Positions 21,335 to 55,427 of a stretch of DNA of 64,000 nucleotides are shown here, piece after piece. Position 1 is the stretch's first letter; each line of letters starts with the position of its first letter. The position numbers and the translations under genes were made by a program. Under the pieces are notes generated by a model. The model made no database searches and was not told where the DNA came from. It saw only the letters and a program-made list of their open reading frames with translations. Source of the stretch: a virus (Duplodnaviria; Caudoviricetes). The stretch is from the IMG/VR virus record IMGVR_UViG_3300010163_000001, positions 190,593 through 254,592 of that record; one strand, given 5' to 3'.

Positions 21335-21340
21335 AGTTTA

Positions 21341-21861
21341 CGCTACATGATTAAGCAACGCATCACACATCCACTACAAATCCAAGCAAGCCATTTCCTT
21401 TACTCAACCACACGCCACCATGCGTCGCCTTTCCGTAACACCACTTCACACAACCTCACCTTTCCTATACCTTACTAGACACATCAATTCATAACGATAC
21501 ATCTCCATAGCATTACAATACTTTACCAGTCCAGTCTATTCCATTACTTAACCTATCTTGACACAGCTTTTCCGATGCATCATATTACAATACTTGGCTC
21601 TTCCATTACTCCACGACTCAACACTTCACTTTTCCTTAACTAGACTAAGTTGTGTGCCGCCTAACGCTTTATAGTACATTACTAAAATTAACTACTCATA
21701 ACCGTGACTCTACCACTCCATTCTATGCATAGCAGATCCATTACATCACTAAACCCAACCTCACCATTCCATTACTTAACTCTACCATTCCACTCCTTTG
21801 CACCACTCAACTTTACATATCGTCGCTATACTGAACACTACCTTTACTTTACATTACTAAA
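21341..21861. repeat. Pentamer-periodic array 1: runs of CNNNN separated by an extra C
   Basis: Parses as cgcta catga ttaag caacg catca cacat c cacta caaat ccaag caagc cattt c cttta ctcaa ccaca cgcca ccatg cgtcg ccttt c ... for about 100 units. Confidence 0.9.
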
Positions 21862-24336: not shown

Positions 24337-24353
24337 CATAACCGTAGATTTTA

Positions 24354-24803
24354 CTACTACTAAACATTACTCTACCAGACTTTACCATTCCTTTTCAATA
24401 CTTTTCGGAACTATTCCAGCACAACACTTAACTTTTCGACACCATTCCCATACGTCACATTACTTATCAACGCTTTTCATTTCAATACAGTGAGAATATT
24501 TTACTAAACTAGTCCAAAGCCAAAAACCTTTTCTCCACATTACTGAACCATTCCATCACCTGACAACGCTTTACTTCTCCAATACGAGCCAATTCCACTC
24601 TGCACCATTCCAATACACATCCGCACTTTACCCTACCATGCACAACCTTTACAAAACTAAACAAAACATCACGACGCTTTTCGTATCCATTACATTTCAA
24701 CACGTTTCCTTGCTATTGCATCACATAACAATTCAGATCAGCACCTCACCATTCCATTACTTAACTCTACCATTCCACTCCTTTACATCACTAAACTTAA
24801 CAC
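24354..24803. repeat. Pentamer-periodic array 2
   Basis: ctaaa catta ctcta ccaga cttta ccatt c ctttt caata ctttt cggaa ctatt c cagca caaca cttaa ctttt cgaca ccatt c ...; shares a 42-bp identical block with array 1. Confidence 0.9.
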
Positions 24804-24815
24804 TTGTAATATTGA

Positions 24816-25231: not shown

Positions 25232-25283
25232 GTATCTTAGATACTATGATACTAGCTGGAAGAGTTGGATTTCTATGAGTATG
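25232..25283 (+). repeat. Shufflon recombination site A (52-bp repeat)
   Basis: GTATCTTAGATACTATGATACTAGCTGGAAGAGTTGGATTTCTATGAGTATG; inverted copy with 1 mismatch at 32939-32990; 22-bp copy at 30821. Confidence 0.85.
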
Positions 25284-27770
25284 GATGGACATACTCATGC
25301 CCGACTTGCTAGTGGGTTTTCGACGTCCAGCGGGAATTTAGATTCATATAAATCTCCTAGCTTGGTTCAAATTACATCTAAAAGTATAACAAATGGTCCT
25401 CTTACTACTTACCCATTAGAATATGTTTGGCTTTTGGTAATCGGATGGGTAGAAGATGCACAACAAATTCTATTCACAGGATCTGCTGATGAGACATATT
25501 GCAGATATTGTATAGATAAAACATGGTCGGAATGGGAAAAATTTGGTGGAACTCCCATCACAGTGGATGATATTGATTTAAGTAATTATGCTTTAAAGAA
25601 TCATAATCATAATGAGTATGCCAAAAATGGAATCATATATCCAGGTACTCAAGGATTTGATAATACTAGTTCCTTAGGTTCTACCGGTATATATAGTCTG
25701 ATTTCAAATACAAGTGACGCAATCCCAAATTCTCCATATAATAATTTGAATCATCGTTATTTGCTCATAAACTCTAAAACCGAAAACTCTCCTGATGCAG
25801 ATAGAATACAAATAGCAGTGTCGTACGACGATTTGTCTGTACATGTTAGGTCATTAGAAGGAACTTCAGGTAAGTGGTCTGGATGGGTTAAAGTATCTTC
25901 TGATGATTTTTTCTCTAAAACATTTATTGACGGATCAAATAAAACTATAGACTTTAATAACTATCTTACTGAAGGAATGTATAAAATAATACTAAATAAT
26001 ACTACTACAGTATTAAATGCTCATCCAATACTTGAACGTGAGAGTGAAGCGGCCATTGAAATAATTATTATAGTACAAAAAATACGTCATTATGTTTATC
26101 AAGACGTTTTTATAAAAAACATGGATAATGATCATTTAAAACGCTTCATTTATTTAATCAATGGCACAGATCCAAAATTCGGAATATGGAATACTACTGA
26201 AATAGGAAAATATCAAAATTTGAATACCAGTATTAAAGATATGAACGATTTTAAATTTTTTGATTATCATGAATTGTTTTTTGACACGATCCCTGTTAAA
26301 GATGTAAAAAACATCCCAGACCAATTTACTGAAAATGATTATGCCTTATTGATACATGCAAGCGATTTGCTTGCAAATTATAATTATTCATATGCTCATC
26401 AAATAATGATTCAATCAGAAACTACTAATATATTTATTAGAGCACTATTATCAAATGATAAATGGACTGATTGGAAAAGAATTTGTACGGATGATGAAAA
26501 TGTAGCTAAATTCCCAGCTACTGGTAATATTGCACCTACAACTGAAGAAACATTAGACTTAAATACAATTATTAAAACTGGTTTGTATACAATTGACCCT
26601 AACAATGAAAAAATATTGAATGTACCAAAACTTTGGTATCATGAATCAAATGCCCCATATAATCCATTACATATGGCTTATTTAACAGTGATTAGTAATG
26701 GTTCTAATATCATGCAGACGATTGAGGCTGGAATGACTAATTGTATATTTAGTTTTTATTCTAGAAGAAGTAGTAATGATGGTGGAAACACCTGGAATAC
26801 ATGGTCAAATAATTATTTAAACGGGAAAATATCTGGTGTAACAATAAATTCTTGGAAAAGATATATTTCAAAAGGAACAGAATCGGTATCTACGTATGAT
26901 ATTAATAAAGATTTAATTACCAAAAATATGTTAAGTTCACTCAATGTTTCTAAAAACTTTGCAGGGACTATCAAAAATTCGCCATTCGATAAAGGCAATA
27001 CTAAATTTTGTATCCAAAATATACACAACAACTGGTGGTTTGATGTTGAAGATGATGGTACAGTAAAGAAAGGCTCCGATGATAATGGGTATATTCATCA
27101 AACAGTATGGGATCTTCCCATGGATAATATTTATACTCGTTATGTTTTAGGAATGAGCAGGGATAATTATACTGATAACTTTACTCCATGGAAGAGAAAA
27201 AGATTTTTAGAAGACGACCAATTCACATGGCAATTAATATGGAATGGGGAACATGTGGCTCCATCATCTATGGCAGATTATCATCCTATAAAAATAAGTA
27301 ACGTCACATTAAATGTTTTAATGAAAAAAGATGATGTGTGCGTAATGTGTTATGCACCATTAAAAATAATTACAAAACGCTATTGTGGTGCAGGTGTATA
27401 TAGAACCAATGTTATTGATACTATGTTAATGTGGCAAATAACTTATAGTGAAGGTATGAGTAAGGATACTGCCATGATATGTGGTGCTTATTATCATTTT
27501 ACACGTATAGGTAATGAATTTAATAATGGCTACGTAAATTCAGATGGAAAATTTACGGATAATTATGGGTCAGTATACACCTTAGAGTCAGGCGAGTGGT
27601 ATCCAGGTTATATTATAGATAGAGATAATGGTGTTAAATCTTATAATGATACATTTAATATAGAAAATGGTCCAAAAGTTCAAAAATTTGGTCCTCTCAC
27701 TATATGTATTGAATTAGGATCAGACTTTTCAGTTGGGTCAAATTTAGTAGCAGTTTATACACTACAATAA
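25233..27770 (+). CDS. Silent tail-fibre C-terminal cassette A
   Basis: Frame opens after TGA (25227) at YLRYYDTSWKSW with no RBS; repeated fibre domains (GxY...Q...R...W..W); tip motif EDDQFTWQLIWNG. Confidence 0.75.
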   Translation, partial: YLRYYDTSWKSWISMSMDGHTHARLASGFSTSSGNLDSYKSPSLVQITSKSITNGPLTTYPLEYVWLLVIGWVEDAQQILFTGSADETYCRYCIDKTWSEWEKFGGTPITVDDIDLSNYALKNHNHNEYAKNGIIYPGTQGFDNTSSLGSTGIYSLISNTSDAIPNSPYNNLNHRYLLINSKTENSPDADRIQIAVSYDDLSVHVRSLEGTSGKWSGWVKVSSDDFFSKTFIDGSNKTIDFNNYLTEGMYKIILNNTTTVLNAHPILERESEAAIEIIIIVQKIRHYVYQDVFIKNMDNDHLKRFIYLINGTDPKFGIWNTTEIGKYQNLNTSIKDMNDFKFFDYHELFFDTIPVKDVKNIPDQFTENDYALLIHASDLLANYNYSYAHQIMIQSETTNIFIRALLSNDKWTDWKRICTDDENVAKFPATGNIAPTTEETLDLNTIIKTGLYTIDPNNEKILNVPKLWYHESNAPYNPLHMAYLTVISNGSNIMQTIEAGMTNCIFSFYSRRSSNDGGNTWNTWSNNYLNGKISGVTINSWKRYISKGTESVSTYDINKDLITKNMLSSLNVSKNFAGTIKNSPFDKGNTKFCIQNIHNNWWFDVEDDGTVKKGSDDNGYIHQTVWDLPMDNIYTRYVLGMSRDNYTDNFTPWKRKRFLEDDQFTWQLIWNGEHVAPSSMADYHPIKISNVTLNVLMKKDDVCVMCYAPLKIITKRYCGAGVYRTNVIDTMLMWQITYSEGMSKDTAMICGAYYHFTRIGNEFNNGYVNSDGKFTDNYGSVYTLESGEWYPGYIIDRDNGVKSYNDTFNIENGPKVQKFGPLTICIELGSDFSVGSNLVAVYTLQ

Positions 27771-27776
27771 ATTTTT

Positions 27777-27810
27777 ATTAGGTACTGGGATTAATTTCCC
27801 AGTACCTAAT
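27777..27810. terminator. Bidirectional terminator
   Basis: ATTAGGTACTGGGA-ttaatt-TCCCAGTACCTAAT between convergent genes. Confidence 0.75.
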
Positions 27811-27817
27811 ATCATTT

Positions 27818-29113
27818 TTACATATCATCTACGAAATCCTCTGAAGGAACGCCGCCATTATTCTTGTTTTCTTCAGATTCTTCCCATTCTCTCTTTGGAC
27901 AGTATTCTTGTACAAGTTCCTTCCCAGTATCTAAATATTTCATATCTGGATTTATTTCAAAGAATTCCGAATACTTCCTTAAGAAAGTGGGATGACAACT
28001 TCCTCTTTTAATCTTACGAAGCCATTCTTCATAAGATCTTGTATAGTAATGATTTAACTGCATGAATTCTGTTGTAATTTCCGGATGATCATCGTAATCT
28101 GCGGTTTCAGCATCTAATCGAACTAATGGTGTATAACTTGTAAACCCGCGAATACGATTTGTCTGAGCAAATGTTTTTCCACCGTGTTTTTCATCATACC
28201 AAGTAGTTTCCTTTGGAAAACGAATCATATCAGGTTCTGCTGTTTGTGTTTCTTGTCCATTTGCAGTATAATGTTTCCATTGACATTTGATTTTTGCATA
28301 TTGTGTGTTTTCCTTAAGGAAATCAATTAAAGATTTTGAATCATCTTTTAATTTGATATATTCATCCGGATCCATACCAATGAACCATTTTGTTTCATTT
28401 TTATAGTTATTTAAGAAATCTGTATGTGCATCTTGCTGTGAAAATCTTGTTGTTGGAAATCTCTTGATGGTACAATGATCAAGATACTTAAAATTAACGC
28501 TTTCCAAGTATTCTTGCGCTGGAATTTCTGATTCGTTATCATAGAGATAGAAATGATCAACTCCCATCTCTTCAATATGATATCGAATCCACTCTTCCAA
28601 ATAATCATTTTCATCTCGAATAATTGCAATTACAGATAAAAAGTATTTGTAATCTATTTTTGCCTCTTCACTTTCAAAAAGTCGAAGTTTACCAGCAACT
28701 TCCTCTTTCTTTAATTCTGCAGTCAATTCGTCTCTTTGTTTTTCCAAAGTGGCTAATTTTTCACGATTATTCTTCGCAATGTTTTTTGCTTCTTCCATAC
28801 TCATTCCATTAATGATGTTATCCATAAATGTTTTGTATTCATTTTCACCGGATGCCTGTTTACTAATTTCGTTTATTTCGCTCATAACATTATGCAAACT
28901 AATAGATGCTTCACTCTCTTGTGGAATTTCGTCATCCTTTAATTCAGTTACTTTTCCATCAATATAGAATAAATTATTATTTATTCCGGATGATAACACC
29001 TTTTTCTCTTCATCACCTTCTACAAAAATAGAATCTGAATTGGAAGTATTATGAATAATCGTATTATATCCCACAATTTTCATATTTTTGTAATCAACAT
29101 ATATTTCGATCAT
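27818..29113 (-). CDS. Glycosyltransferase (GT-A fold, GT2/GT92-like) with extra N-terminal coiled-coil domain
   Basis: LSVIAIIRDENDYLEEWIRYH..GVDHFYLYDNES, DxD motif in WFIGMDPDEY, QLNHYYTRSYEEW. Confidence 0.8.
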   Translation of the reverse strand: MIEIYVDYKNMKIVGYNTIIHNTSNSDSIFVEGDEEKKVLSSGINNNLFYIDGKVTELKDDEIPQESEASISLHNVMSEINEISKQASGENEYKTFMDNIINGMSMEEAKNIAKNNREKLATLEKQRDELTAELKKEEVAGKLRLFESEEAKIDYKYFLSVIAIIRDENDYLEEWIRYHIEEMGVDHFYLYDNESEIPAQEYLESVNFKYLDHCTIKRFPTTRFSQQDAHTDFLNNYKNETKWFIGMDPDEYIKLKDDSKSLIDFLKENTQYAKIKCQWKHYTANGQETQTAEPDMIRFPKETTWYDEKHGGKTFAQTNRIRGFTSYTPLVRLDAETADYDDHPEITTEFMQLNHYYTRSYEEWLRKIKRGSCHPTFLRKYSEFFEINPDMKYLDTGKELVQEYCPKREWEESEENKNNGGVPSEDFVDDM

Positions 29114-29209
29114 TTTTTATATGCACCTCCATTATTTTAAATAAATATATTTATTTAAAATGTACGGTAGGGAAATTAATAATATATTTCATTCATGCAG
29201 TATCTCATA

Positions 29210-30727
29210 TTAAATTTTTAGTATAGATATCTTTGTAATAACGTCACCACCATTAATATATAATTCAATTGAAGTATCATCTGCTATATTTACACCAATA
29301 CCAGATTTTAAAGTAATCATCTGTTTACCTAATGAGCACAGATTACCGCAAAGGCTTTGAAAATCGCTAATTGCAGACCAATAACAATCAGTATGGCAGT
29401 TAAAGTTTGAATTATATACTGATAAATAAACAGACGAACATGAATTATCAATAGGAATAGGACTATTATGATATAAATTATAATTACACGTATATGCGCA
29501 ATTTGTAGATTCAATTTCTTTAGTTAAAATGAAAGTTTGTTCAAAAAACTCGTTATAATTACTACATTTATATCCTCTTATTTTTATGATTACTCCTACT
29601 ATTAAAGTGGGATGACCGGAAATCCCAATTGGGTCATATGAAAATATACCGTATTTATATGGATCTGATATAGGAAATTTCTTATTATAGGATATCTCTC
29701 CATCAAATATAGTATTCCAACATTCCGTATTATCTTCCAATGCAACATTATACCAAGTAGTATTAGAATATCCGTTACCATTGCGAATAAGTAACGCAGG
29801 TGCAGTACCAATTCTTCCAACAACTGATAATTGTGGTAGAGAACATTCCACACTTCTAGTAGCTATATAATCTTTATCATCAGCTAGACCATTGTCTAGC
29901 AGATCACTTTTATTAGAACAGTCTGTTATATTTGCTACAAATTCTAGAATATTACATCCATTATAGTTATAATATTCAGAGTATGTTTTTATTACATTCA
30001 TAAAACGTAAAATGCTCCAATCTGACCATGTACTACCCGTAGAATATGTTCTTTGTCTAGTATATATTTCAGACATATTGGTAAGATACGCAGTATTTGA
30101 ATTTTCTTTTATAGCTAATTGCTGTATCTTACTATTGGTAGATTTCATTACAATTAGTGAAAAGTTTCCTGCTGCTGGAGCATTTAATGCGGTGGTTGCA
30201 TTTGTCATTGTATAAATACCTGGAGTTGTCATGTTATTAAAATTCGTAGCATTCTTTGTTGACACTGCAGCAAAATCAGATGCATGTTTGTTGTCTACTG
30301 TATCTGCATTACCTCCATTTGCGGGTAATGATGATGGTACGGTAGGTATATTTACTGTTTTTGCTGTGCTACCATCATATGAGCCAGTAACGCTTCCTGT
30401 AAACGTCAGAGCATTTGGATTTTTCATAGTCGTAGGCATATCTGTAATTTCTGATTTCGTATGTTTATGTTCCTTTGGAGCAAATCTATTATCAGATGTT
30501 GATTTATCATATGCGTTAACATCAGTTGCTGTTGTACCATGAGGGTTTGTATCTTTTGTAATCGCATGGTCATATGCTGTTTTCCCTCTATCTCCACGAT
30601 AGGCTGTATCGCTGGTCTCGCCTAATGTAAGAGCACTTTTTATTTGCTGATATCTACCTTCCGTAAATGTAAGAATTGTCTTTATCAGACTTTTTAAAAC
30701 ATTTTTATTTGTAGATTTTCTTGCCAT
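29210..30727 (-). CDS. Tail fibre protein: constant N-terminus (aa 1-~215) currently fused to cassette D
   Basis: Fibre motifs LGETSDTAYRGDRG, HKHTKSEITDMP, SYDGSTAKTVNIP, ANGGNADTVDNKHASDFA; AGGAG RBS; late promoter at 30767-30778; in-frame GTATCTTA at 30082-30089. Confidence 0.85.
   Translation of the reverse strand: MARKSTNKNVLKSLIKTILTFTEGRYQQIKSALTLGETSDTAYRGDRGKTAYDHAITKDTNPHGTTATDVNAYDKSTSDNRFAPKEHKHTKSEITDMPTTMKNPNALTFTGSVTGSYDGSTAKTVNIPTVPSSLPANGGNADTVDNKHASDFAAVSTKNATNFNNMTTPGIYTMTNATTALNAPAAGNFSLIVMKSTNSKIQQLAIKENSNTAYLTNMSEIYTRQRTYSTGSTWSDWSILRFMNVIKTYSEYYNYNGCNILEFVANITDCSNKSDLLDNGLADDKDYIATRSVECSLPQLSVVGRIGTAPALLIRNGNGYSNTTWYNVALEDNTECWNTIFDGEISYNKKFPISDPYKYGIFSYDPIGISGHPTLIVGVIIKIRGYKCSNYNEFFEQTFILTKEIESTNCAYTCNYNLYHNSPIPIDNSCSSVYLSVYNSNFNCHTDCYWSAISDFQSLCGNLCSLGKQMITLKSGIGVNIADDTSIELYINGGDVITKISILKI
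30082..30089 (-). repeat. Putative shufflon crossover core in the expressed fibre gene
   Basis: GTATCTTA in the same frame (TAT CTT = Y-L) as the three silent cassettes; only 8-9 bp match, so the support is contextual. Confidence 0.6.
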
Positions 30728-30766
30728 TTTTATATTCTCCTTTCTTATATTAATAATATTCGTTTT

Positions 30767-30778
30767 TATTTAAGTGTA
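30767..30778 (-). promoter_or_regulatory. Putative late promoter TACA-N6-TA of the tail fibre gene
   Basis: TACActtaaaTA; lies inside the segment bounded by the 30082 and 30821 sites. Confidence 0.5.
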
Positions 30779-30820
30779 CTAAATTCAGTGTTTAGATTTC
30801 CATTTATCAAATTCCTTTAC

Positions 30821-30842
30821 GTATCTTAGATACTATGATACT
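30821..30842 (+). repeat. Shufflon recombination site B
   Basis: GTATCTTAGATACTATGATACT, identical to sites A and C over 22 bp. Confidence 0.85.
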
Positions 30843-31697
30843 GCTAGCTGGAGCACATGGTATATAAATGAATTACAAAATGCTGCAACTTATAAGTACA
30901 ATTCTGTATATCAAGAACCTATAGCTTACAATTCACCAACCCCGGGAGTATATGAGAATCGTAACTTTTGCAAAGATTATAGATATAACGATGTTGATTT
31001 AAACACCGGAAGTTGTATTGGTATTAATATGCATTATAGTCATTTATATATGGGTTGTGATATGTCGATGGTCTTAGTAGATACCCTTGATATACCAAGT
31101 ATTTTATTTAAGGGAAATAATCATGATAAGTTTTACAAAGTTGCTATGGAAGATAGAATAATTAAACCATTAGTAATATACAATGGAAGCTATACAGGTA
31201 CCCAGTTAACTTTAAATGTACCATTAGAATATTTAGAACACAATATAATTTTTAGGAATAATATTTTATATTTATTTTCTTGCTTAAAAGTGACTATAAT
31301 ATATAAAGAAAATATTAACAATAAATGTAGTTGGCTTGAACAATCTGAAAATATTGTACAATATACATTTGAAGATGCCTATTATTTAAAATCAACTAGC
31401 TGTAACATTTATTATGAAAGTCCTATGACATCATCATTCGGTATAAATTGTAATTATAATGGAAGTATGAAAATGTGCATATATGGGAAACAATTTGGGT
31501 ATGATCCTGATTGTTCTAATTGCATGTGGATCAATAATAATTGTCCACATGCGGTTCCAAATTATATTGATGACATACATTGTAGTTTATTATATTGGAA
31601 TTATGGAAGCCCTCAATTAGGTCCTATATTTAAATTGAATATAAATAATCATAATCTTGATATAAAAAAAGTTATAATTGAGCGATTACCATCTTAA
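30822..31697 (+). CDS. Silent tail-fibre C-terminal cassette B
   Basis: Open frame from YLRYYDTASWSTW runs into track ORF 31029..31697; no upstream ATG or RBS; tip motif VAMEDRIIKPLVIYNG. Confidence 0.75.
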   Translation, partial: YLRYYDTASWSTWYINELQNAATYKYNSVYQEPIAYNSPTPGVYENRNFCKDYRYNDVDLNTGSCIGINMHYSHLYMGCDMSMVLVDTLDIPSILFKGNNHDKFYKVAMEDRIIKPLVIYNGSYTGTQLTLNVPLEYLEHNIIFRNNILYLFSCLKVTIIYKENINNKCSWLEQSENIVQYTFEDAYYLKSTSCNIYYESPMTSSFGINCNYNGSMKMCIYGKQFGYDPDCSNCMWINNNCPHAVPNYIDDIHCSLLYWNYGSPQLGPIFKLNINNHNLDIKKVIIERLPS

Positions 31698-31711
31698 TTT
31701 TTATTTGATTA

Positions 31712-32989
31712 TTAATTTAAAAAATAAATAGCGAGTAATCGTAACTTAGATTCAGCATCAAATCCGAAGTTAATATTAAAGTTCATATATATTACTCTAG
31801 AGTAACCATCGTTAAGAGTTTCTTCTCCAGGAAGATTATCTATATAAGCTGAATTTACTGAAGAAAGGGGGTGATTATAATCCACATTACCACCAGTTAA
31901 AGAGATAAACGGTTTTGTTGCCGCTCCTTCAATATCAAATTCTGCGTCATATAATAAATAAGATTGATATGTGCAATTACAACTGTCACTACGAATAATC
32001 CAACCTAAAGTAGCTTCTGCAGATCCTAGTTTATAATTAGTTGAACTTGTATAAAACATATAATCTATACGTACTGGTAATATACACAGATTTAATGGGC
32101 CACCATAAATACCACACAAGTAATTACATCCGTTACCTGAGAATTTACCCATTCTAGTAATTCTAACATTTCCCATAAGATTATATATAGTTTTTATTAA
32201 GTCACCAGAACCAGATGATTTTAATGAACCACTCCATACCCTTTCCCAAACAAAATGATCGTCTTCAGAAAGTAATTTATATCTCTTCCATTCAGACCAC
32301 TCATTAACACCTTCCCTATATTTTAAATAACGAGAATAAAAATCAGTCATTTGGGTATTAATAGACAATTGGAATTTTCCCTTTTTGTAATTTCCATTAT
32401 TATCAGTACTTTCTGATGCATTATATTCTATCTGAAGTACAAATGTGTTATTATAACCATAATGTCGTGCAGGATATTCGTCTGAAGAATATTTAAAGTA
32501 TTCTGGAGGAGTATTGTCAATTGTATAAGAATAATAATCACCTGGGAGTGCAATAACTCCTGAGAAGCCATCAAAATTATATGACATGTCAGTTTCAGAT
32601 GGCAATTTTTTTACATTAGAAATAGATTCCCATTCAGACCATCTAAAACTATATGAAGTATCAGAAACTTCGGTTAAATAATAATTACGTATAAATATAT
32701 TATTATCGCCGACACCAGAGACAATCTGGTGAATACATGGCGGGGAATAATAGCCACTTACAAATACAATTAATCCAACTTCTGGGACTTTAAAATTAGT
32801 ATCTAGAAGCTGATATGGGATGCCTACTGAGTTTCTAGGTATGGTATAAAAACCAGGTGTAAATAGTTCATTAACATTTACTGATATACTTGAACCTAAA
32901 TTTTTCCAATTAATAGCATTATTATGTGCATGATCGCTCATACTCATAGAAATCCAACTTTTCCAGCTAGTATCATAGTATCTAAGATA
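31712..32989 (-). CDS. Silent tail-fibre C-terminal cassette C
   Basis: Begins YLRYYDTSWKSWISMSM directly after a terminator, no RBS; tip motif EDDHFVWERVWSG. Confidence 0.75.
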   Translation of the reverse strand, partial: YLRYYDTSWKSWISMSMSDHAHNNAINWKNLGSSISVNVNELFTPGFYTIPRNSVGIPYQLLDTNFKVPEVGLIVFVSGYYSPPCIHQIVSGVGDNNIFIRNYYLTEVSDTSYSFRWSEWESISNVKKLPSETDMSYNFDGFSGVIALPGDYYSYTIDNTPPEYFKYSSDEYPARHYGYNNTFVLQIEYNASESTDNNGNYKKGKFQLSINTQMTDFYSRYLKYREGVNEWSEWKRYKLLSEDDHFVWERVWSGSLKSSGSGDLIKTIYNLMGNVRITRMGKFSGNGCNYLCGIYGGPLNLCILPVRIDYMFYTSSTNYKLGSAEATLGWIIRSDSCNCTYQSYLLYDAEFDIEGAATKPFISLTGGNVDYNHPLSSVNSAYIDNLPGEETLNDGYSRVIYMNFNINFGFDAESKLRLLAIYFLN

Positions 32990-32990
32990 C
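32939..32990 (-). repeat. Shufflon recombination site C
   Basis: 51/52 identity to site A, inverted. Confidence 0.85.
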
Positions 32991-32997
32991 AAAGTTT

Positions 32998-33035
32998 GAT
33001 TAGAACGGATAGAATATATTCTATCCGTTCTAATC
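32998..33035 (-). terminator. Hairpin terminator insulating cassette C
   Basis: GATTAGAACGGATAGAAT-at-ATTCTATCCGTTCTAATC. Confidence 0.7.
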
Positions 33036-33046
33036 TATTCGTTTAT

Positions 33047-34399
33047 TTATTCATCAAAATCATCATCTAATAAGGACTCCTCAAGAAATTCTAATTCATC
33101 CTGTAAAATGGCTGCTTCTGCAGCAGGATCTTTTGCTGTAGAATCTCTCTGTCCAACAGATCCATCTGTTCCGTTAATGGGATCGAAATCATCTAAAACC
33201 CCATCTGCAAAGTTTTTATCGAAAGATGCTTTTGAATCTCTCTGTCCTTCTGAGCCATCATTTGTTTTTACTGGGTCATCTGTATTTCGATCACCGTCCG
33301 TATAGTTGTCTTCAAATGTTGCTACAGAATTTTGCTGACCAATTGAACCATTAGATGTTGCTTCAGGATCTTCTAATCCCAATACATCAGATTCATATGC
33401 GATAATCATATCGATACATTCGTTGATATATGCTTCTGTTGCAGGTTCTTTTCCCTTTGCCTTATTTCTTAAGTCTGCAGTAGCTTTTCTTCTTGCTTTT
33501 GTAGCAGACATGCCAGAAGACTGATACTTATCAATCAACTCTTTTCTGGATATATTTACTGCAAGTGTATTGTTGGATTTAATAATTCCATTCAATGTGC
33601 TAATTGTAGGCTTTGAATCTGGTTTGCCAATCAGTTTTGCTTTTGCAGTTTCTACTTTATGTCCAAAACTTTGGACAATACTGAGAGCCTTTTTATAATT
33701 ACCAGAATTCATAGCGTTTTCAACTTCTGCATTATTGATATCAGTAACTCCTACAGAATTAAGTGCTGCAGATCTCTTTGCATTTTTCTTTGCTCCCATT
33801 TTATCCTTTATTTTACCTTCTGTTGCAATATCATACCTTCCCATAAGGGACCCAATATTGAATTCAGATTCCATAGAGGGGTCTTTTGCTACAGAGTCTC
33901 TCTGACCAATAGATCCTCTTCCAGTAATGATTGGATCTCCAAGGTTATCAAAGGTATCAGAATAATTCTTTTCATAATTTGCAACACTATCTGCTCCTAT
34001 TGAACCAGGTTTTGTTGTAATTGGATCTCCAGAATTCATAAAATCAGTAGAGAAATTACTATTCCAACTAGCTGCACTAGACTGGTATCCTATTGAACCA
34101 GGTTTTGTTGTAATTGGGTCATTCGTATTTAGATTTAAAGAACTGAAAAAATCACTTCCAGTTAAAGCAGCGGCTTCTGTAGCATTTAGTACATCACATT
34201 CTTCTCCAATACCATCAAAGTCGTCATCCACCATTTCATCTACTTCTTCATCAATGATAGGATGTTTTCCAGTTACCATGGTATCGATTAATTCATCTGC
34301 TTCCATGGCAAGTTCTTCATTAAATGCAATTTCTTCATTTGCCGCTTCCATAACAATTTCATCGTTTAGCATATTATTCATTCCGCTTAATAAACTCAT
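33047..34399 (-). CDS. Putative processed internal head protein with six DPxxxxxGSxG repeats
   Basis: Acidic N-terminus with multiple AME/ATE/SME/AAE motifs; two triplets of ~30-aa repeats around a basic domain; start MSLLSG after AGGAAGG. Confidence 0.6.
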   Translation of the reverse strand: MSLLSGMNNMLNDEIVMEAANEEIAFNEELAMEADELIDTMVTGKHPIIDEEVDEMVDDDFDGIGEECDVLNATEAAALTGSDFFSSLNLNTNDPITTKPGSIGYQSSAASWNSNFSTDFMNSGDPITTKPGSIGADSVANYEKNYSDTFDNLGDPIITGRGSIGQRDSVAKDPSMESEFNIGSLMGRYDIATEGKIKDKMGAKKNAKRSAALNSVGVTDINNAEVENAMNSGNYKKALSIVQSFGHKVETAKAKLIGKPDSKPTISTLNGIIKSNNTLAVNISRKELIDKYQSSGMSATKARRKATADLRNKAKGKEPATEAYINECIDMIIAYESDVLGLEDPEATSNGSIGQQNSVATFEDNYTDGDRNTDDPVKTNDGSEGQRDSKASFDKNFADGVLDDFDPINGTDGSVGQRDSTAKDPAAEAAILQDELEFLEESLLDDDFDE

Positions 34400-34418
34400 A
34401 ATATATAAACCTTCCTTT

Positions 34419-35819
34419 CTATAAAAAGTCATTTTGCTTTGATTTAAAATAACTCTCGTAATATTGTGTAATAATATAAATAATTATAGGCATCATCCGA
34501 TACGTATAATTATCTACTCTTAAAGTATATGGAATCAGTAATTCCTTGTTGATATCTGACATTCTTCCAGTTAAATATTCAATAACAATTTTCTCTGGAT
34601 ACGTAAGACAAACTTTTTCTATCTTTGGTTTATAATACACAGGACAGTTTTCTGTACCTGCATCTGGATTGCCTACATATTCCTTGTAATAGTCTTGATC
34701 TCCTTCAAAAATAATAATTTGACAACCATCTGGATCTTCCTGCTTTAAATGATCTGGATGTTTAATCAAATCAATCATTTTATGTGAAAAATATTCCATT
34801 GTATCTCCATTATCTAATGCATCGGAATGACCTTTTTGAAGTTTCTTCCTGGTTATTAAAAGGTTTACACCTTTACAATTTATGTCATTAATGACAAATG
34901 GTGATGCACTCTTCTGAATACCCACCTGATATTCATATGGATAAGGTGCTAGATAACTAGCATCCCTATTCAATACTGCATAGTATAGGGTTTCCATATA
35001 AAGTCTGTTCATATCTTGTTCAATATCAGCACAAGATAAAACTATAGATTCTTCTATATTATCTCTATAGTATATTTGAGATTCCATAATGAACTTTTCA
35101 ACATATTTATCATATAACCAAGCATCTTCATGATCAATTGTATTATTTTTACACACGAACGTACCAGTGAAAGAATCAAAAAAATTCTCATAATAGTGTC
35201 TTAAAAGCTCGTTAATTAACTTCCCTGCATTTTGTATCTTCGAAACATCTTTTTTCTGGATAAAACATTTATCCTCTGTTCCAATATTTTCAAATATTGT
35301 TTCCCATTCTTCTACAATTTGACCTTTAAATCGATTTATTAAATCTTTTCCGGTAAATCGTAAGTCTGCAGAAAACATATAGAAATCATTTGATTGAATT
35401 GTGTTATAAGAGAAAGCATTTATTCGGAAGCATAATTCAATCATATTTGGAAGACTAATTATGATATGATCCCCAACTCTTGGTTTTACTGTATTTGGTA
35501 ATAAAGTAATGTCGGAAAGATCTAATTCGATATCATATCCATTTTCCGAATAATCTAAGTCAGGCTTTAATTCTGGGACATTACATATCGGTAAACCATT
35601 AATCTGATCATATCTTACTGGAGAATTGGGTCCTATATCAGATTCCACAGAACCCAATCCAACATCACTTCTTGATTCTGCTTCGTTTGTGTGTAAATAA
35701 GTGATAAAAATAAAGTTTTTATCCAAAAATTTACTATATTGACCAACTCTATTCTCAGCAAAGGTTTTGATGAGGCTATCTGTGTATTGTGATTTTTCAA
35801 CGTTTATAATTCTTGCCAC
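34419..35819 (-). CDS. Putative virion structural protein (neck/head-closure-like)
   Basis: 466 aa; LLPNTVKPRVGDHIII...FRINAFSYNTIQSNDFY beta-rich segment; late promoter at 35860-35871. Confidence 0.5.
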   Translation of the reverse strand: MARIINVEKSQYTDSLIKTFAENRVGQYSKFLDKNFIFITYLHTNEAESRSDVGLGSVESDIGPNSPVRYDQINGLPICNVPELKPDLDYSENGYDIELDLSDITLLPNTVKPRVGDHIIISLPNMIELCFRINAFSYNTIQSNDFYMFSADLRFTGKDLINRFKGQIVEEWETIFENIGTEDKCFIQKKDVSKIQNAGKLINELLRHYYENFFDSFTGTFVCKNNTIDHEDAWLYDKYVEKFIMESQIYYRDNIEESIVLSCADIEQDMNRLYMETLYYAVLNRDASYLAPYPYEYQVGIQKSASPFVINDINCKGVNLLITRKKLQKGHSDALDNGDTMEYFSHKMIDLIKHPDHLKQEDPDGCQIIIFEGDQDYYKEYVGNPDAGTENCPVYYKPKIEKVCLTYPEKIVIEYLTGRMSDINKELLIPYTLRVDNYTYRMMPIIIYIITQYYESYFKSKQNDFL

Positions 35820-36503: not shown

Positions 36504-38537
36504 TTATTTCATTTCTTTTTGTTTTTTCTTTATTCCCCTGAGAAATCGTGCAATTTTATTATCATTTCCGCATTTATCCAATTCTTCAATCACCCGATTT
36601 ACAATAGCTGCAGCTTCTTCTGCCTTTGTATTAACAAGCATTTCTGTCTTCTGTCTCTGACCAACCTGTCGATCATAATTTCGATTGATAGATAAGAATT
36701 GATTGCTTGTTAATATAGTAGACAGCACACTTACCATATTATATAGAATTTCAATATCTGTGGATACCGGATTTACGATGTAACAATCTTTGTCTGGAAT
36801 AAGAGTGTCCGTAACCAAATCATATCCATAATGATTCTCCACAGCCCAGAGAATAATGCCAATTTTTGTAAATTTTTCATCTTTTATTTCATGGGTTTCC
36901 GTATCTTCTCGATGTACAAGAATAACATCGTCATTCTGATATTTGTTGTTCAATACAAAAATAGAAAGATCCTGGAATACTCTAAAAAAGATATTTGTTA
37001 AATCTACATATAACTGATTTGGAGCAGTTAAATATTCTTTCCGTACCTCATATTCTTTCCGTACCTCATCAATTGTCTCTAGCATGACAAGATTTAATCC
37101 TCGGATATATCCATCTTCATATGCAGATCTGCAAGCAAGTACCGCATCATCAACAGAATCCTTCAAACATTGTTTTTCTAATTCAGATTTTCCACCAACA
37201 TAAATAACACCAAGTTTTCCGGAAAGTTTTGTGTAATGCTGATATGCATTCATATAGTCGTTTCTTAGATTTCCGTTTGTTTGCTTTTCTGCTTTTTCTT
37301 TAATAACTTCAAATTCGTGTTTTGCATCCTCTAATTTATTCTTAAATACAGTCTGATTTACAATTGTTTCGTAATCTTTAAGTAATACATATCTTTCCGC
37401 AACCGTGATATTCCGAGCGCGACCAACACATAATTTAATGATATCTGAAGGTTCATTAAATTTATATTGATCTGTATTGAGTAAAGCATCTTCTATGATG
37501 TCTTCTGGCTTTGCTGTTTGATTATGAACCATTACATTGAATGCTCGCACCTTTCCATAATCAAACACTTGTGCATTTGTAAGAAGAACAAGATCAGACA
37601 TGTATTTTCTATGAATCTCCATAGACGTTGGAACCTGAATCAACATAACATTTGGAACTTGCCCCTGCTGAAGTAAACTTTCTGTGGATGTTTTGATGAT
37701 ATTTAATAAGATATCATCAAAATAAGGAGCAAAAATAAATAATGAGGCGTTATGTGCAGTTGCATAGCGAGATAATCCTGTGATAATCTTATCATGTTCA
37801 TTATAATTTACATTGTGATCGAAAATAGCTACAAAGGAATTTTCTTTCAATACATACGTTCCTTCATCTGTATTTCGATACACACTTTGATTGATCGGTT
37901 TACAATCAAGTTTATATCCAGTTTGAATCTCATATCGTAAGCATTTTCCAGAATCAAGTGTAACGTATATATTTGGGTTATTTGTTAATTGATAAATCTC
38001 TTTGATAATAGAAGATAGTTCGTCATTTCCATTTGAAGAGACATTTGCAATCTGTTCAATATCAGAATAATCCCACCCCTCATGGGTCTTAATATGTCTT
38101 ACATATTTACTCTCAGAAAGAGTCGTTGCGATTTTATTTGATACTGCTTCGATCGCACTTACAATATCTGCCTGACGATAATTTTTCTGAGATAATAAAT
38201 TCAAAATTTCATGTAGGAATATGGAAGCACCGACGAATGAAGTTGTTGTCCCATCTCCAACTGTGTGTGCCAAACCAAAACTTGTCAGTTTTAAGATTCC
38301 ATATAATGTATTATAGACTGGATCGTTAAATCTCAACCTCTTCAATACATTCCATCCATCTTTCGTAGGATATGTCATAACCCCATCATCAATAATTGTT
38401 GTCTTACCATATGGACCTAGTGTTTTTACCACCATCTCAGATGCAACATCAGCGATTGTCATGATGGTCTCTAAATATTCTTCCTCCGGTATGATATTCG
38501 TTCCATACTTAATATCTTCTCGTAATTGTAAATTCAT
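36504..38537 (-). CDS. groEL: Phage GroEL-like chaperonin
   Basis: KTLGPYG, TKDGWNVL, VGDGTTTS, VIYVGGKSELE...KDSVDDAVLACRSA motifs. Confidence 0.92.
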   Translation of the reverse strand: MNLQLREDIKYGTNIIPEEEYLETIMTIADVASEMVVKTLGPYGKTTIIDDGVMTYPTKDGWNVLKRLRFNDPVYNTLYGILKLTSFGLAHTVGDGTTTSFVGASIFLHEILNLLSQKNYRQADIVSAIEAVSNKIATTLSESKYVRHIKTHEGWDYSDIEQIANVSSNGNDELSSIIKEIYQLTNNPNIYVTLDSGKCLRYEIQTGYKLDCKPINQSVYRNTDEGTYVLKENSFVAIFDHNVNYNEHDKIITGLSRYATAHNASLFIFAPYFDDILLNIIKTSTESLLQQGQVPNVMLIQVPTSMEIHRKYMSDLVLLTNAQVFDYGKVRAFNVMVHNQTAKPEDIIEDALLNTDQYKFNEPSDIIKLCVGRARNITVAERYVLLKDYETIVNQTVFKNKLEDAKHEFEVIKEKAEKQTNGNLRNDYMNAYQHYTKLSGKLGVIYVGGKSELEKQCLKDSVDDAVLACRSAYEDGYIRGLNLVMLETIDEVRKEYEVRKEYLTAPNQLYVDLTNIFFRVFQDLSIFVLNNKYQNDDVILVHREDTETHEIKDEKFTKIGIILWAVENHYGYDLVTDTLIPDKDCYIVNPVSTDIEILYNMVSVLSTILTSNQFLSINRNYDRQVGQRQKTEMLVNTKAEEAAAIVNRVIEELDKCGNDNKIARFLRGIKKKQKEMK

Positions 38538-53057: not shown

Positions 53058-54665
53058 ATGACCATAAATAAAATAGAAGAATATATTAAAAAATCGGAAC
53101 CATCTGAATTAGTAGAGTTTTTAAAAGAAAATCCTAATTTAGTATATAAAATGTCGAATATCTTATTTTCAAAATTTTCAACTTTAGAATTAGTACATGA
53201 TGGATGTAATGGCTTTACAGTACAAAATTTAATTGAACTATTGGAATGCTTTTTTAAGAATCGGCCAGATGTCGGGGTGACAGAGTTTAACCTTTTAGAA
53301 GAGTTAGTCCGTCCAATTCCATCTAATACAGAAAAACATGTCATTCTAAATCCAGATGTTTTTAATAAGAATCCAATATTATCTTTGGTTTTATTATTAA
53401 TAGATATGAATGATATTGTAAACGATAAAATTATTCATTGTAATGGATTGGAAAATACAGCAGCTTGCCAATTATATCAGTACATTGTAGATGTATACAT
53501 TCCCACATTAAATCCAGATTTGTTAATTGCTACATTTTGGAGGAATTATAAATTCACAGATGTTATAAAGAATGCCAGTAACACAAACTGGTTTATGAAA
53601 ATATATCAGGAAAATGATTTATCAAAAGAAGTAGATATGAAAGATTTATTATTATTATTTAAATATATTTCTGATATTTATTCTAATCGGGAGATGAAGC
53701 TAGAATTTTTCAAAGAACTTCATTTCAAATTTAAAAAATCTTATAATCCTAGTGAGATTATGTATACAATAGCGAATAGATTTCGTTTCTACTTTAAAGA
53801 AGATACCGAATACATGATTATTGATTTATTGAGGATTGGATTAATTGAAGATATGAATGAATTACAAGATGAATTGGAAGGGTTTCTTGGTAGATTTTTC
53901 CGATATAATTCAAGAGCAAATACTAAAGTTATTGAATGTTTTGTAAGGGATTCTCTCGCATTCTGTATTACAAAATATGGAAAGGCAAAATTTGCAAATC
54001 ATATTTTAAATTTTATAACTGAAAATTGGAATAATCCAAAATACGATGTTGAAATGATTGAATGTGATGATGAAATTTTATTTGCTGATGATAAACCCAT
54101 TACTTATTTGGAAGGTTTGACTTCTTATATTGCAACAGAAGCTGTTCATAAAGATAGTTCTATAATAAATAAAGGAGAACGAAAGATCTATAAGGCATAT
54201 AAAACTTATAAAGATGCAGAAGAAAAAGTAGACAGTCAGATATCAAAAGCACTTAATGGTATGAAAAATGTCATTACTGGAGATACAACATCAGAAATAA
54301 TTGAAGGAAAGAAATTTTCTGCAATTGGGTTATTAAAGAAATTACTTACAACCGTAGCGATTTTCTCTTATAGTAAAATCGCAGGAGTAATTGCATTAGT
54401 TGTACGTTATGCTTTGAAGAAAAAAACTAAAGATGCAGAACGAAGTAAGATCTTAATGGAATTAGAAACTGAGATTGAAATGATAACAGAAAAAATCGAA
54501 GATGCAAAAGGAGACGATAATCGAGAAGCAAAATATTCTATGATGCGAACGAAAAAAGAATTAGAAACTGCATATAAGAGAATATCACTTGGATTGGATG
54601 CAGATAAGAAGAGTAAAGATAAGGCGTTAGCTACAATAAACGCTTCCCGTAAAGGAAAATTATAA
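53058..54665 (+). CDS. Putative processed internal head protein
   Basis: YIATE site followed by a basic helical domain with a hydrophobic hairpin. Confidence 0.55.
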   Translation: MTINKIEEYIKKSEPSELVEFLKENPNLVYKMSNILFSKFSTLELVHDGCNGFTVQNLIELLECFFKNRPDVGVTEFNLLEELVRPIPSNTEKHVILNPDVFNKNPILSLVLLLIDMNDIVNDKIIHCNGLENTAACQLYQYIVDVYIPTLNPDLLIATFWRNYKFTDVIKNASNTNWFMKIYQENDLSKEVDMKDLLLLFKYISDIYSNREMKLEFFKELHFKFKKSYNPSEIMYTIANRFRFYFKEDTEYMIIDLLRIGLIEDMNELQDELEGFLGRFFRYNSRANTKVIECFVRDSLAFCITKYGKAKFANHILNFITENWNNPKYDVEMIECDDEILFADDKPITYLEGLTSYIATEAVHKDSSIINKGERKIYKAYKTYKDAEEKVDSQISKALNGMKNVITGDTTSEIIEGKKFSAIGLLKKLLTTVAIFSYSKIAGVIALVVRYALKKKTKDAERSKILMELETEIEMITEKIEDAKGDDNREAKYSMMRTKKELETAYKRISLGLDADKKSKDKALATINASRKGKL

Positions 54666-54680
54666 AGGCGGTGAATAAAA

Positions 54681-55427
54681 ATGAATGAGTTTGCAAAAAA
54701 TGGAGATTATGTTGTATTAAATGCTCCATATGCAGAAGCATATATTCCTCAAAGTATAGTTGGAGATCCCCAGAAAGGAAAACCAGTTGCATATAATTAT
54801 GGAGATGGGTTTCACACAACTGGTTTATTTAATATTAAATTCTTTAAATCGGATGATGACCCAAGAGACTCTGCGAAATTAAGAGTTTTCAATTATCCAA
54901 ATGCTTTAACAATGTATCCTACATCAAAAGAACTTGTTACATTGAAATTAAGTGAAGATATGGATGAAGACAAATATGTTGTTCTTAAATTTTATAAGGG
55001 TGACATTATAATGAATAAAAAGATTCAAAAAGGAAGTAGGAATTGCGAAGATTTCATGGACCTTTTAATTAAAGGAAAGCTTCCAAAGGGTTTAGATTAT
55101 GAATCTTTATACTATGCATGGGTAAAGAACTTGGAAATAAATGCAGTGGATCCAGGTGTTCCTCTTGTTACTTTACAATTAGTTATATCAGAGAATTGTA
55201 GATCAATTGATGATCCGATGAAACAATTCCGAAAAGTAATAAACGATGATGGGGTTGCTTCTACAGATTATAAGGTTCATAATATGGTAGATATTTGTAG
55301 CAATAACTCTGTTATGAATGCATTGACATTTGAAAGATTTGGAGAAATGTTGACAAGTTCCTTAAATATGTCAAAATCAGGAGTAAAGCAATCTACTTCT
55401 CCATTAGAGGTTGTATTAAGTATTTAA
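54681..55427 (+). CDS. Probable split RNA polymerase beta-prime C-terminal fragment
   Basis: LQLVISENCR...NSVMNALTFERFGEMLTSSL...SPLE resembles the beta-prime C-terminal region (aS F E/Q motif). Confidence 0.5.
   Translation: MNEFAKNGDYVVLNAPYAEAYIPQSIVGDPQKGKPVAYNYGDGFHTTGLFNIKFFKSDDDPRDSAKLRVFNYPNALTMYPTSKELVTLKLSEDMDEDKYVVLKFYKGDIIMNKKIQKGSRNCEDFMDLLIKGKLPKGLDYESLYYAWVKNLEINAVDPGVPLVTLQLVISENCRSIDDPMKQFRKVINDDGVASTDYKVHNMVDICSNNSVMNALTFERFGEMLTSSLNMSKSGVKQSTSPLEVVLSI

What the first reader, a model, noticed from the sequence alone, without database searches (positions are those of the whole stretch)
25232..32990. Four-cassette tail-fibre shufflon in which the promoter and constant 5' half form the central invertible unit
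Seen: three start-less fibre frames (A 25233+, B 30822+, C 32989-) each begin at GTATCTTAGATACTATGATACT, encoding YLRYYDT. The only complete fibre gene (30727-) has GTATCTTA in the same frame at ...ENSNTAYL; joining gives QQLAIKENSNTAYLRYYDTSWKSW, a natural fibre-domain end. All four C-termini share an ED...W/I..G motif before different tip domains. Geometry: inverting 25240-30081 swaps D for A; inverting 30090-30820 flips the promoter and N-terminus onto B; inverting between the B and C sites exchanges B and C. Established: Mu Gin, P1 Cin and R64 Rci switch receptor-binding ends this way. A multi-cassette, bidirectional version in an AR9-like jumbo phage is unusual to my knowledge.
Basis: partly seen in the sequence, partly recalled or inferred. 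Interest (0 to 1): 0.92.

Follow-up and report, generated by a model that had tools for sequence, protein, structure and literature searches.

The report
Tail-fibre cassette switch, jumbo phage
An uncultured 255-kb phage has one complete tail-fibre gene surrounded by three promoter-less, start-less alternative fibre ends laid out so that DNA flips would swap the host-binding tip, but no flipping enzyme was found and no flipping has been shown.

Summary
An exact 22-bp site occurs three times in the 254,592-bp genome and nowhere else. Each copy heads a long open frame (845, 291 and 425 codons) that has no usable start, Shine-Dalgarno sequence or late-promoter motif. The one complete fibre gene (505 aa) shares only the first 8 bp of the site, in the same frame.

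In-silico inversions at that 8-mer give in-frame fibres of 1058, 504 and 638 aa. Each fusion restores, without a gap, a canonical pyocin-knob-type domain end. The gene as it stands has an 8-residue insertion exactly at the junction.

The four sites alternate + - + -. The only constant half and the only late-promoter motif lie on the 731-bp middle segment.

I read this as a shufflon-type inversion locus, a new variant of a known kind (Gin/Cin, Min, Rin, Rci). Three things weaken it:
- Nine recombinase or transposase Pfam families gave no hit anywhere in the genome.
- The expressed junction lacks the 14-bp conserved arm, so this genome may be locked.
- No reads or related genomes could be examined.

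Other first-reader notes cover this same DNA. They are not independent evidence.

The parts
25232..25253 (+). Site A: exact 22-bp repeat, made of the 13-bp perfect palindrome GTATCT-T-AGATAC plus TATGATACT
25233..27770 (+). Silent cassette A: 845 codons from the site. The frame is closed by TGA one codon upstream. It contains several internal knob-like repeats and a tip domain.
   Evidence: orphan in the 5.8-billion-protein search; internal ATGs have a weak SD of -3.9 kcal/mol
27776..27811 (.). 15-bp-stem hairpin, a bidirectional terminator-like site between cassette A and the glycosyltransferase gene
   Evidence: (I21)
27818..29113 (-). Glycosyltransferase gene (GT2/GT92) directly downstream of the D half on the same strand. 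It has a strong SD and no late-promoter motif of its own, so it would be co-switched with D.
29210..30081 (-). D-specific 3' half of the expressed fibre gene (residues 216-505), with a Cys-rich tip
30082..30089 (-). 8-bp core GTATCTTA in the expressed gene (codons A213-Y214-L215). It is the only part of the site present here; the 14-bp right arm is absent.
30081..30132 (.). Inverted repeat of 12 bp with one bulge that includes the core (arms 30081-30092 and 30120-30132); significance unknown
   Evidence: DNA fold z = -3.0
30090..30727 (-). Constant 5' half: residues 1-213, holding the fibre N-terminus and the first strands of a knob domain. It is the only copy in the genome.
30728..30820 (-). 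Leader and promoter of the expressed gene: SD AAGGAG and the late-type motif TACACTTAAATAAA at 30765-30778. Together with the constant half it forms the 731-bp middle segment, 30090-30820.
30821..30842 (+). Site B: exact 22-bp repeat
30822..31697 (+). Silent cassette B: 291 codons from the site. There is no ATG, GTG or TTG in frame for the first 82 codons of the open frame. The tip is Cys-rich.
31712..32989 (-). Silent cassette C: 425 codons from the site. Its first 67 nt are 88% identical to cassette A.
   Evidence: (I1)
32969..32990 (-). Site C: exact 22-bp repeat
32998..33035. Hairpin (perfect 38-bp palindrome, scored as a 17-pair stem) between the upstream late gene and site C. It probably insulates cassette C from read-through.
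   Evidence: (I4)

Best explanation
The locus is built for switching the receptor-binding end of a tail fibre by DNA inversion (shufflon type).

Layout:
- There is one late promoter, one ribosome-binding site and one constant 5' half of 213 codons. This half ends inside a pyocin-knob-type beta-sandwich domain.
- Four alternative 3' halves (A, D, B, C) each supply the last strands of that domain plus a different shaft and tip.
- The three silent halves start at an exact 22-bp site.

Proposed mechanism:
- Strand exchange within the first 8 bp (GTATCTTA), the only part shared with the expressed gene, between sites of opposite orientation joins the constant half in frame to another cassette.
- The sites alternate + - + -, so three adjacent segments are invertible: A..D (4.8 kb, which carries the glycosyltransferase gene with D), the 731-bp promoter-plus-constant segment, and B..C (2.2 kb).

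Shown: the sites, the frames, the geometry, the domain logic, and the lack of starts and promoters.
Inferred: that recombination happens, that the crossover lies in the 8-mer, and which enzyme does it (unknown).

The junction now expressed (constant half joined to D) is a hybrid half-site with an 8-residue insertion. This genome therefore looks like the product of a secondary-site event and may switch rarely or be locked. I put about 0.35-0.4 on switching still occurring in this phage, within 0.6 for the locus being an inversion system at all.
For: 1. Three exact 22-mers against 0.01 expected by chance, unique in the genome.
2. Homology begins at the same nucleotide in all three copies and the left flanks are unrelated.
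3. The site uses the minor codons CTT (19%), TAC (16%) and ACT (30%). The chance of identical codon choice in three copies is about 4e-4, so the constraint acts on the DNA and not only on the peptide.
4. The cassettes start mid-domain. In an alignment with 13 outside homologues and 3 internal repeats, constant half + A, B or C is gap-free, with the canonical 'Q, 10 residues, [YF]xR...WxxW' layout. The actual D gene carries an 8-residue insertion at the junction.
5. In an AF2 model with a 17-sequence MSA (pLDDT 78), the junction falls in a low-confidence loop between two strands. The closest folds are phage baseplate and fibre proteins and R1/R2 pyocin fibres, 6cl5 and 6cl6.
6. No second copy of the constant half exists in the genome.
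7. Shine-Dalgarno strength: D -8.7 and GT -10.6 kcal/mol against a genome median of -8.7. The candidate starts in A, B and C score -3.9, -2.8 and -3.5, near background. B has no start codon for 82 codons.
8. The only late-promoter-type motif in the locus lies on the middle segment in front of D. None precedes A, B, C or GT.
9. Simulated inversions give intact in-frame fibres of 1058, 504 and 638 aa.
10. Frames of 291-845 codons stay open in a 31% GC genome. Hairpins insulate cassettes A and C.
Against: - No hit anywhere in the 254.6-kb genome to Resolvase, Phage_integrase, Integrase_1, Recombinase, DEDD_Tnp_IS110, Y1_Tnp, rve or Topoisom_I. Integrase_2 also gave nothing, but its control genomes were silent too, so that search says nothing.
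- Pfam scans of 50 proteins found only an HNH-HTH endonuclease and RusA. The phage is very divergent, so a remote or new enzyme could escape these searches.
- The expressed site shares 8 of 22 bp and lacks the conserved arm. That 8-mer could be left-over coding homology rather than a working site.
- No alternative fusion protein appears among 5.8 billion database proteins, and no other contig carries the site in this phage's context.
- No related genome is close enough to compare.
- Reads could not be examined.
Confidence: 0.6

Rival explanations
1. Independent genes. A and C are translated from the ATGs 14-16 codons inside the frame (as the gene callers assumed) and B from ATG 31029. The 22-mer is only the conserved start of duplicated fibre modules.
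For: - In-frame ATGs exist at 25275/25281 and 32947/32941.
- The database gene calls are 829, 411 and 215 aa.
- A GGAAGAG/GGAAAAG stretch lies upstream of the A and C ATGs.
Against: - SD strength is near background and there is no late-promoter motif.
- The W..W strand upstream of these ATGs is conserved as protein in B although its DNA has diverged.
- The products would begin with a severed domain strand and would lack any fibre attachment part.
- B would lose 69 conserved-frame codons.
- The alternating orientation around the single constant half is left unexplained.
Confidence: 0.1
2. Recombinase-free cassette library. The silent halves are exchanged with the expressed gene by the phage's general homologous recombination acting on the short shared sequence (22-67 bp between cassette-type junctions). 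Inversion is then a by-product of inverted homology, as in the recA-dependent nested inversions of the Campylobacter fetus sap locus (from my own knowledge, not checked here).
For: - No site-specific recombinase was found.
- The phage encodes RusA, a Holliday-junction resolvase.
- A and C share 67 nt at 88% identity.
- Earlier notes on this genome report other long inverted repeat modules.
Against: - Homology with the present expressed junction is only 8 bp, too short for homologous recombination. 22 bp is also marginal.
- The homology boundary is sharp to the nucleotide.
- The 13-bp perfect palindrome inside the site looks like a protein-binding site.
Confidence: 0.12
3. Dead relics. The cassettes are left-overs of past fibre replacements or of a shufflon that has lost its enzyme. 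They are no longer used and have not yet decayed.
For: - The expressed site is degenerate and has an 8-residue scar.
- No recombinase was found.
- Only a single arrangement appears in the one assembly.
Against: - 4.7 kb in three frames of 291-845 codons has no stop in a 31% GC genome. The chance for B alone is about 1e-11 by my own estimate from base composition.
- The 22-mers are still exact at minor codons.
- Phage genomes shed useless DNA quickly.
- Simple replacement relics would lie downstream in the same orientation, not alternate around the promoter.
Confidence: 0.15

Closest known systems
Mu Gin/G segment, P1 Cin/C segment and the p15B Min multiple-inversion system (serine invertases)
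   Same: - A constant 5' fibre part is joined in frame to alternative promoter-less 3' parts by inversion between short inverted sites.
- Min has several cassettes and six crossover sites.
- An accessory gene travels with a cassette (U/U' there, the glycosyltransferase with D here).
   Different: - No serine recombinase is present in the whole genome.
- The site is a 13-bp odd-centred palindrome with a one-sided extension, not a 26-bp gix-type site with a 2-bp centre.
- The constant part lies between cassettes rather than outside the invertible DNA.
- The host is a 255-kb phage whose lifestyle is unknown, not a temperate phage or plasmid prophage.
R64 shufflon (Rci tyrosine recombinase, sfx sites)
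   Same: - The sites are asymmetric: a short core plus one conserved arm on the cassette side and a non-conserved arm on the other (from my own knowledge of sfx).
- Several segments could invert singly or in groups.
- Only the 3' end of the gene changes.
   Different: - No tyrosine recombinase was found.
- The expressed site here lacks the conserved arm.
- The target is a phage fibre, not the pilV adhesin.
Rin shufflon of Bifidobacterium prophages, and the second bifidophage inversion at an 8-bp sequence with no flanking recombinase (PMC6109161)
   Same: - A phage receptor-binding protein with a constant N-terminal gene and several variable C-terminal cassettes.
- Each cassette is headed by a short asymmetric repeat (11-bp rix).
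- The paper also describes an inversion at an 8-bp sequence with no adjacent recombinase.
   Different: - Rin has an adjacent tyrosine invertase and its inversions were seen between genomes.
- Here no enzyme and no second arrangement are known.
Campylobacter fetus sap locus (promoter on an invertible segment between opposed cassettes; my own knowledge, papers not held in the library)
   Same: A single promoter sits on a central invertible segment that can face cassettes on either side, with nested inversions.
   Different: - There the segment carries only the promoter and the cassettes are complete genes with a long conserved 5' region.
- Recombination there is recA-dependent.
- Here the mobile unit would also carry the constant coding half, and the shared sequence is only 8-22 bp.

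Membership tests
Gene-altering programmed inversion (shufflon in the broad sense) | Short repeats in inverted orientation bracket the exchangeable segments | tested here: met
   The sites lie at 25232 (+), 30082-30089 (-), 30821 (+) and 32990 (-) and alternate in orientation.
Gene-altering programmed inversion (shufflon in the broad sense) | One promoter and one constant 5' part; alternative 3' parts without promoter or start, joined in frame by the inversion | tested here: met
Gene-altering programmed inversion (shufflon in the broad sense) | Isomers coexist in a population, or differ between close relatives | not testable with these tools
No close relatives or alternative contigs were found.
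Gene-altering programmed inversion (shufflon in the broad sense) | A dedicated site-specific recombinase | tested here: not met
   None of eight informative Pfam recombinase or transposase families is present in the genome; a ninth search (Integrase_2) had silent controls. None appeared among 50 scanned proteins. A divergent or new enzyme is not excluded.
Serine-invertase fibre switches (Gin/Cin/Min) | Resolvase-family invertase gene next to the invertible DNA | tested here: not met
   PF00239 gave no candidate in 254,592 bp, while the control rang in 12 of 14 genomes.
Serine-invertase fibre switches (Gin/Cin/Min) | Crossover sites of about 26 bp, with two 12-bp inverted half-sites around a 2-bp centre | tested here: not met
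   The site is a 6+1+6 palindrome followed by TATGATACT, and only 8 bp of it is present at the expressed junction.
Rci/sfx or Rin-type tyrosine shufflons | Tyrosine recombinase | tested here: not met
   PF00589, PF12835 and PF13009 gave no match. The PF13009 control was silent, so that search is uninformative.
Rci/sfx or Rin-type tyrosine shufflons | Asymmetric sites with a core plus one conserved arm at every junction | tested here: inconclusive
   This holds for the three silent sites. The expressed junction has the 8-bp core only.
Pyocin-knob-type tail-fibre protein | Knob beta-sandwich domain with the conserved N.P ... Q ... R ... W..W pattern and a fibre-type N-terminal part | tested here: met
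   - 1219 homologues, many carrying PF12789 or named as pyocin knob proteins.
- PHROG minor tail protein match over residues 122-243.
- Invariant P, Q, R, W, W columns.
- The model is closest to phi812 baseplate proteins and R1/R2 pyocin fibres, but with weak E-values of 0.0085-0.03.

The most novel reading that the evidence does not exclude
A working fibre shufflon in a lytic jumbo phage that runs on an enzyme of no known recombinase family (or on the phage's own general recombination). Its mobile unit is the promoter plus the constant half of the gene, flipping between cassette banks on both sides. New cassettes, such as D with its glycosyltransferase, would be captured through 8-bp secondary sites.
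Probability: 0.2. Interest if true: 0.85.

Novelty: new variant of a known kind. Interest (0 to 1): 0.62.

Why it matters
- Programmed fibre switching is known mainly from temperate phages and plasmids that carry an adjacent invertase.
- A four-cassette version in a 255-kb phage would mean that jumbo phages can also hedge host range within one genome.
- The lack of any recognisable recombinase points either to an undescribed DNA invertase or to a recombinase-free way of switching. Either could be tested directly with two cloned 22-bp sites.
- The locus also gives a clean natural map of where a knob-type fibre domain can be cut and re-joined.
- It warns annotators that the three 'genes' called here (829, 215 and 411 aa) are probably not free-standing genes.

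Tried and rejected
- Relatives:
  - Relatives of the D protein are generic fibre N-termini only.
  - Cassettes A, B and C are orphans.
  - The only kin locus found (L004, 32% identity in a neighbouring virion protein) has no such repeats and no fibre homologue.
- Exact 21-mer scans: viral and metagenome contigs returned 11 loci. All belong to one unrelated 51% GC marine phage lineage, where the string sits after a TTGACA in a promoter-like spot, so it is a coincidence. Genome contigs gave none.
- Complex prediction of the constant knob part with the start of cassette A gave no verdict (score 0.04). It counts neither for nor against.
- A single-sequence AF2 model of D residues 120-300 was unusable (pLDDT 34).
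- Pfam and PHROGs found nothing in the cassettes.
- A link to the neighbouring pentamer (VIPR-type) arrays was rejected: only chance 9-mers are shared with the sites.
- Read-through of cassette C from the upstream gene was rejected. The two share a frame, but two stop codons and a strong hairpin lie between them.
- Splicing or ribosome hopping was rejected. The cassettes lie on both strands and kilobases away, and the shared 8-mer would be duplicated.
- The neighbouring proteins (346, 245 and 118 aa) are acidic and helical and show no recombinase features.
Full report
**What the window is.** The window is the last 64 kb of a 254,592-bp virus record with 31% GC. The region of the finding lies among late and virion genes:
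- a virion structural protein at 34419-35819;
- a chaperonin-like gene at 36504-38537;
- a family B DNA polymerase further on.

**The repeat.** GTATCTTAGATACTATGATACT occurs exactly three times, at 25232 (+), 30821 (+) and 32990 (-). Shuffles expect 0.01. It occurs nowhere else in the genome, even with five mismatches.
- Its first 13 bases are a perfect palindrome, GTATCT-T-AGATAC.
- The left flanks of the three copies are unrelated. Identity starts at the same nucleotide in each.
- To the right, A and C stay 88% identical for 67 nt. B keeps about 30 nt and then diverges completely.

**The frames.** From each site a long frame is open: A 845, B 291 and C 425 codons. All begin YLRYYDT(A)SW..W.
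- The frames open only 1, 13 and 14 codons upstream of the site.
- B has no ATG, GTG or TTG for the first 82 codons of its open frame.
- A and C have ATGs 14-16 codons in, but their Shine-Dalgarno pairing is -3.9 and -3.5 kcal/mol, and B's first ATG scores -2.8. The median of 177 long genes of this phage is -8.7, and 9-23% of random positions do as well as these three.
- The expressed fibre gene and the glycosyltransferase gene score -8.7 and -10.6.
None precedes A, B, C or the glycosyltransferase gene.
- Strong hairpins sit after A (27776-27811) and just before C (32998-33035).

**The complete gene.** 29210-30727 (-) encodes 505 aa. Its N-terminal 250 residues match many tail-fibre proteins, several annotated as pyocin knob proteins, and a PHROG 'minor tail protein' over residues 122-243.
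- The 8-mer GTATCTTA lies at 30082-30089 (-) over codons A213-Y214-L215, in the same phase as in the cassettes.
- The 14 bases that follow are unrelated to the cassette arm.
- The 8-mer alone is common, with 22 copies in the genome. Its weight comes from where it lies.

**The domain argument (the main new evidence).** Knob-type repeats inside A and C, and the knob domains of 13 fibre proteins from unrelated phages, all end the same way: 'Q, ten residues, [YF]xR, a short turn, WxxW'.
- In a MAFFT alignment, the constant half (to residue 213) joined to the start of A, B or C fits this pattern without a gap.
- The gene as it stands has an 8-residue insertion (TNMSEIYT) exactly at the junction.
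- BLAST independently aligns the first 12 cassette residues with those internal domain ends.
- An AF2 model of residues 140-250 with a 17-sequence alignment (pLDDT 78, pTM 0.70) puts residues 208-220 in a low-confidence loop between the strands QQLAIKE and YTRQRTY.
- Its nearest solved folds are phage baseplate and fibre proteins and the R1/R2 pyocin fibres (6cl5 and 6cl6, rmsd 2.4 Å over 89 columns), although the E-values are weak.
- The cassettes therefore begin with the last strands of a beta-sandwich whose first strands are encoded only by the constant half. tblastn finds no second copy of that half in the genome.

**DNA-level constraint.** The seven codons of the site include the minor codons CTT (19% of Leu), TAC (16% of Tyr) and ACT (30% of Thr). 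Identical choice in three copies has a probability of about 4e-4 if synonymous positions were free. This argues for a DNA site, or for ongoing homogenisation, rather than peptide conservation alone.

**Geometry.** The sites alternate + - + -. Simulated inversions gave these products:

| Inverted segment | Product |
|---|---|
| 25240-30081 | constant half + A, 1058 aa |
| 30090-30820 | constant half + B, 504 aa |
| 30090-30820, then 30829-32982 | constant half + C, 638 aa |

All are in frame and run to the natural stops. The middle segment of 731 bp carries the promoter motif, the ribosome-binding site and the constant half. The glycosyltransferase gene (GT2/GT92) lies downstream of D on the same strand with no promoter motif of its own. 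It would therefore be expressed with D only, much as the U/U' genes travel with the Mu cassettes (my own knowledge). The four tips are of similar length after a shared ED...W/I..G motif and align weakly.

**What speaks against an active switch.**
- First, the enzyme. Six-frame HMM searches of the whole genome found no Resolvase, Phage_integrase, Integrase_1, Recombinase, IS110-type DEDD, HUH Y1, rve or topoisomerase IB. An Integrase_2 search also found nothing, but its control genomes were silent, so it is uninformative. The TnpB zinc-ribbon model gave only weak zinc-ribbon hits.
- Pfam scans of 50 proteins, including 20 chosen for basic pI, found only an HNH-HTH endonuclease and RusA. Most proteins of this phage match nothing, so a remote or new enzyme is not excluded.
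- Second, the expressed junction has only the 8-bp core. If the conserved arm is what the enzyme binds, as with Rci on sfx (my own knowledge), this junction is a poor substrate. The 8-residue scar suggests D was joined through a secondary site. The genome as assembled may be locked or strongly biased to D.
- Third, nothing shows heterogeneity. No alternative fusion protein exists among 5.8 billion proteins. No other contig carries the site in this context. All three silent cassettes are orphans and the only distant kin locus is uninformative.

**Weighing.**
- Independent genes do not explain the severed domain, the missing start in B, or the orientation pattern.
- Simple relics do not explain 4.7 kb of open frames, exact sites at minor codons, or cassettes on both sides of the promoter.
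- General homologous recombination cannot use 8 bp, although it could shuffle cassette-type junctions (22-67 bp).
- I therefore give 0.6 to an inversion-type cassette system. Within that, I give about 0.35-0.4 to present-day activity.

**Comparison with known systems.**
- Multi-cassette fibre shufflons are known. The Min system of p15B is one. Another is Rin of bifidophages, with 11-bp rix sites and a tyrosine invertase. The same paper reports a further inversion at an 8-bp sequence with no adjacent recombinase (PMC6109161).
- Fibre genes are among the enriched targets of programmed inversions in bacteria (PMC9881135).
- A library search for jumbo phage, tail fibre and invertase gave nothing relevant.

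**Earlier notes.** Other first-reader notes on the same DNA (e1-5524919, e1-5524937, e1-5524920) say much the same. They are repeats, not independent support.

Noticed in passing
window 30081-30132: The 8-bp core in the expressed gene is one arm of an inverted repeat of 12 bp with one bulge (GTAAGATAC-a-GCA ... TGC-GTATCTTAC, 27-nt spacer). A second GTATCTTAC therefore lies on the opposite strand at 30124. The DNA fold has z = -3.0. It could be part of the site or a chance feature.
   Followed up: partly
window 27818-29113 (-): A GT2/GT92 glycosyltransferase gene sits inside the A..D segment directly downstream of the D half. It has a strong SD, and its leader resembles the D leader (78% over 27 nt), but it has no late-promoter motif. 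Its expression may be tied to the D state.
   Followed up: partly
L001 and L005-L014 (viral and marine metagenome contigs): 21 of the 22 site bases occur exactly in one unrelated 51% GC marine phage lineage, just after a TTGACA, in a promoter-like context. The flanks are unrelated to this phage, so I took it as coincidence.
   Followed up: partly
G000 ends (window end 64000 = genome 254592): The two ends of the 254,592-bp record are an exact 115-bp inverted repeat. This could be a real terminal feature or an assembly artefact at an internal inverted repeat.
   Followed up: no
window 33047-34432 (-): A 461-aa very acidic protein with 31-residue repeats (DPI(T/V)T.PGSIG..., 93-nt period) lies directly upstream of cassette C. 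It is in the same reading frame as C but separated from it by two stops and a strong hairpin.
   Followed up: partly
G000:C1:14079-15083 (-) and 54062-54748 (-): An HNH_3 endonuclease with a C-terminal HTH, and a RusA Holliday-junction resolvase. These are the only DNA-cutting enzymes seen in the screen for a recombinase.
   Followed up: no
window 24338-24805 and 21337-21861: Pentamer-phased arrays, read as VIPR guide arrays in earlier notes, lie next to the left end of the locus. They share no more than chance 9-mers with the four sites.
   Followed up: partly
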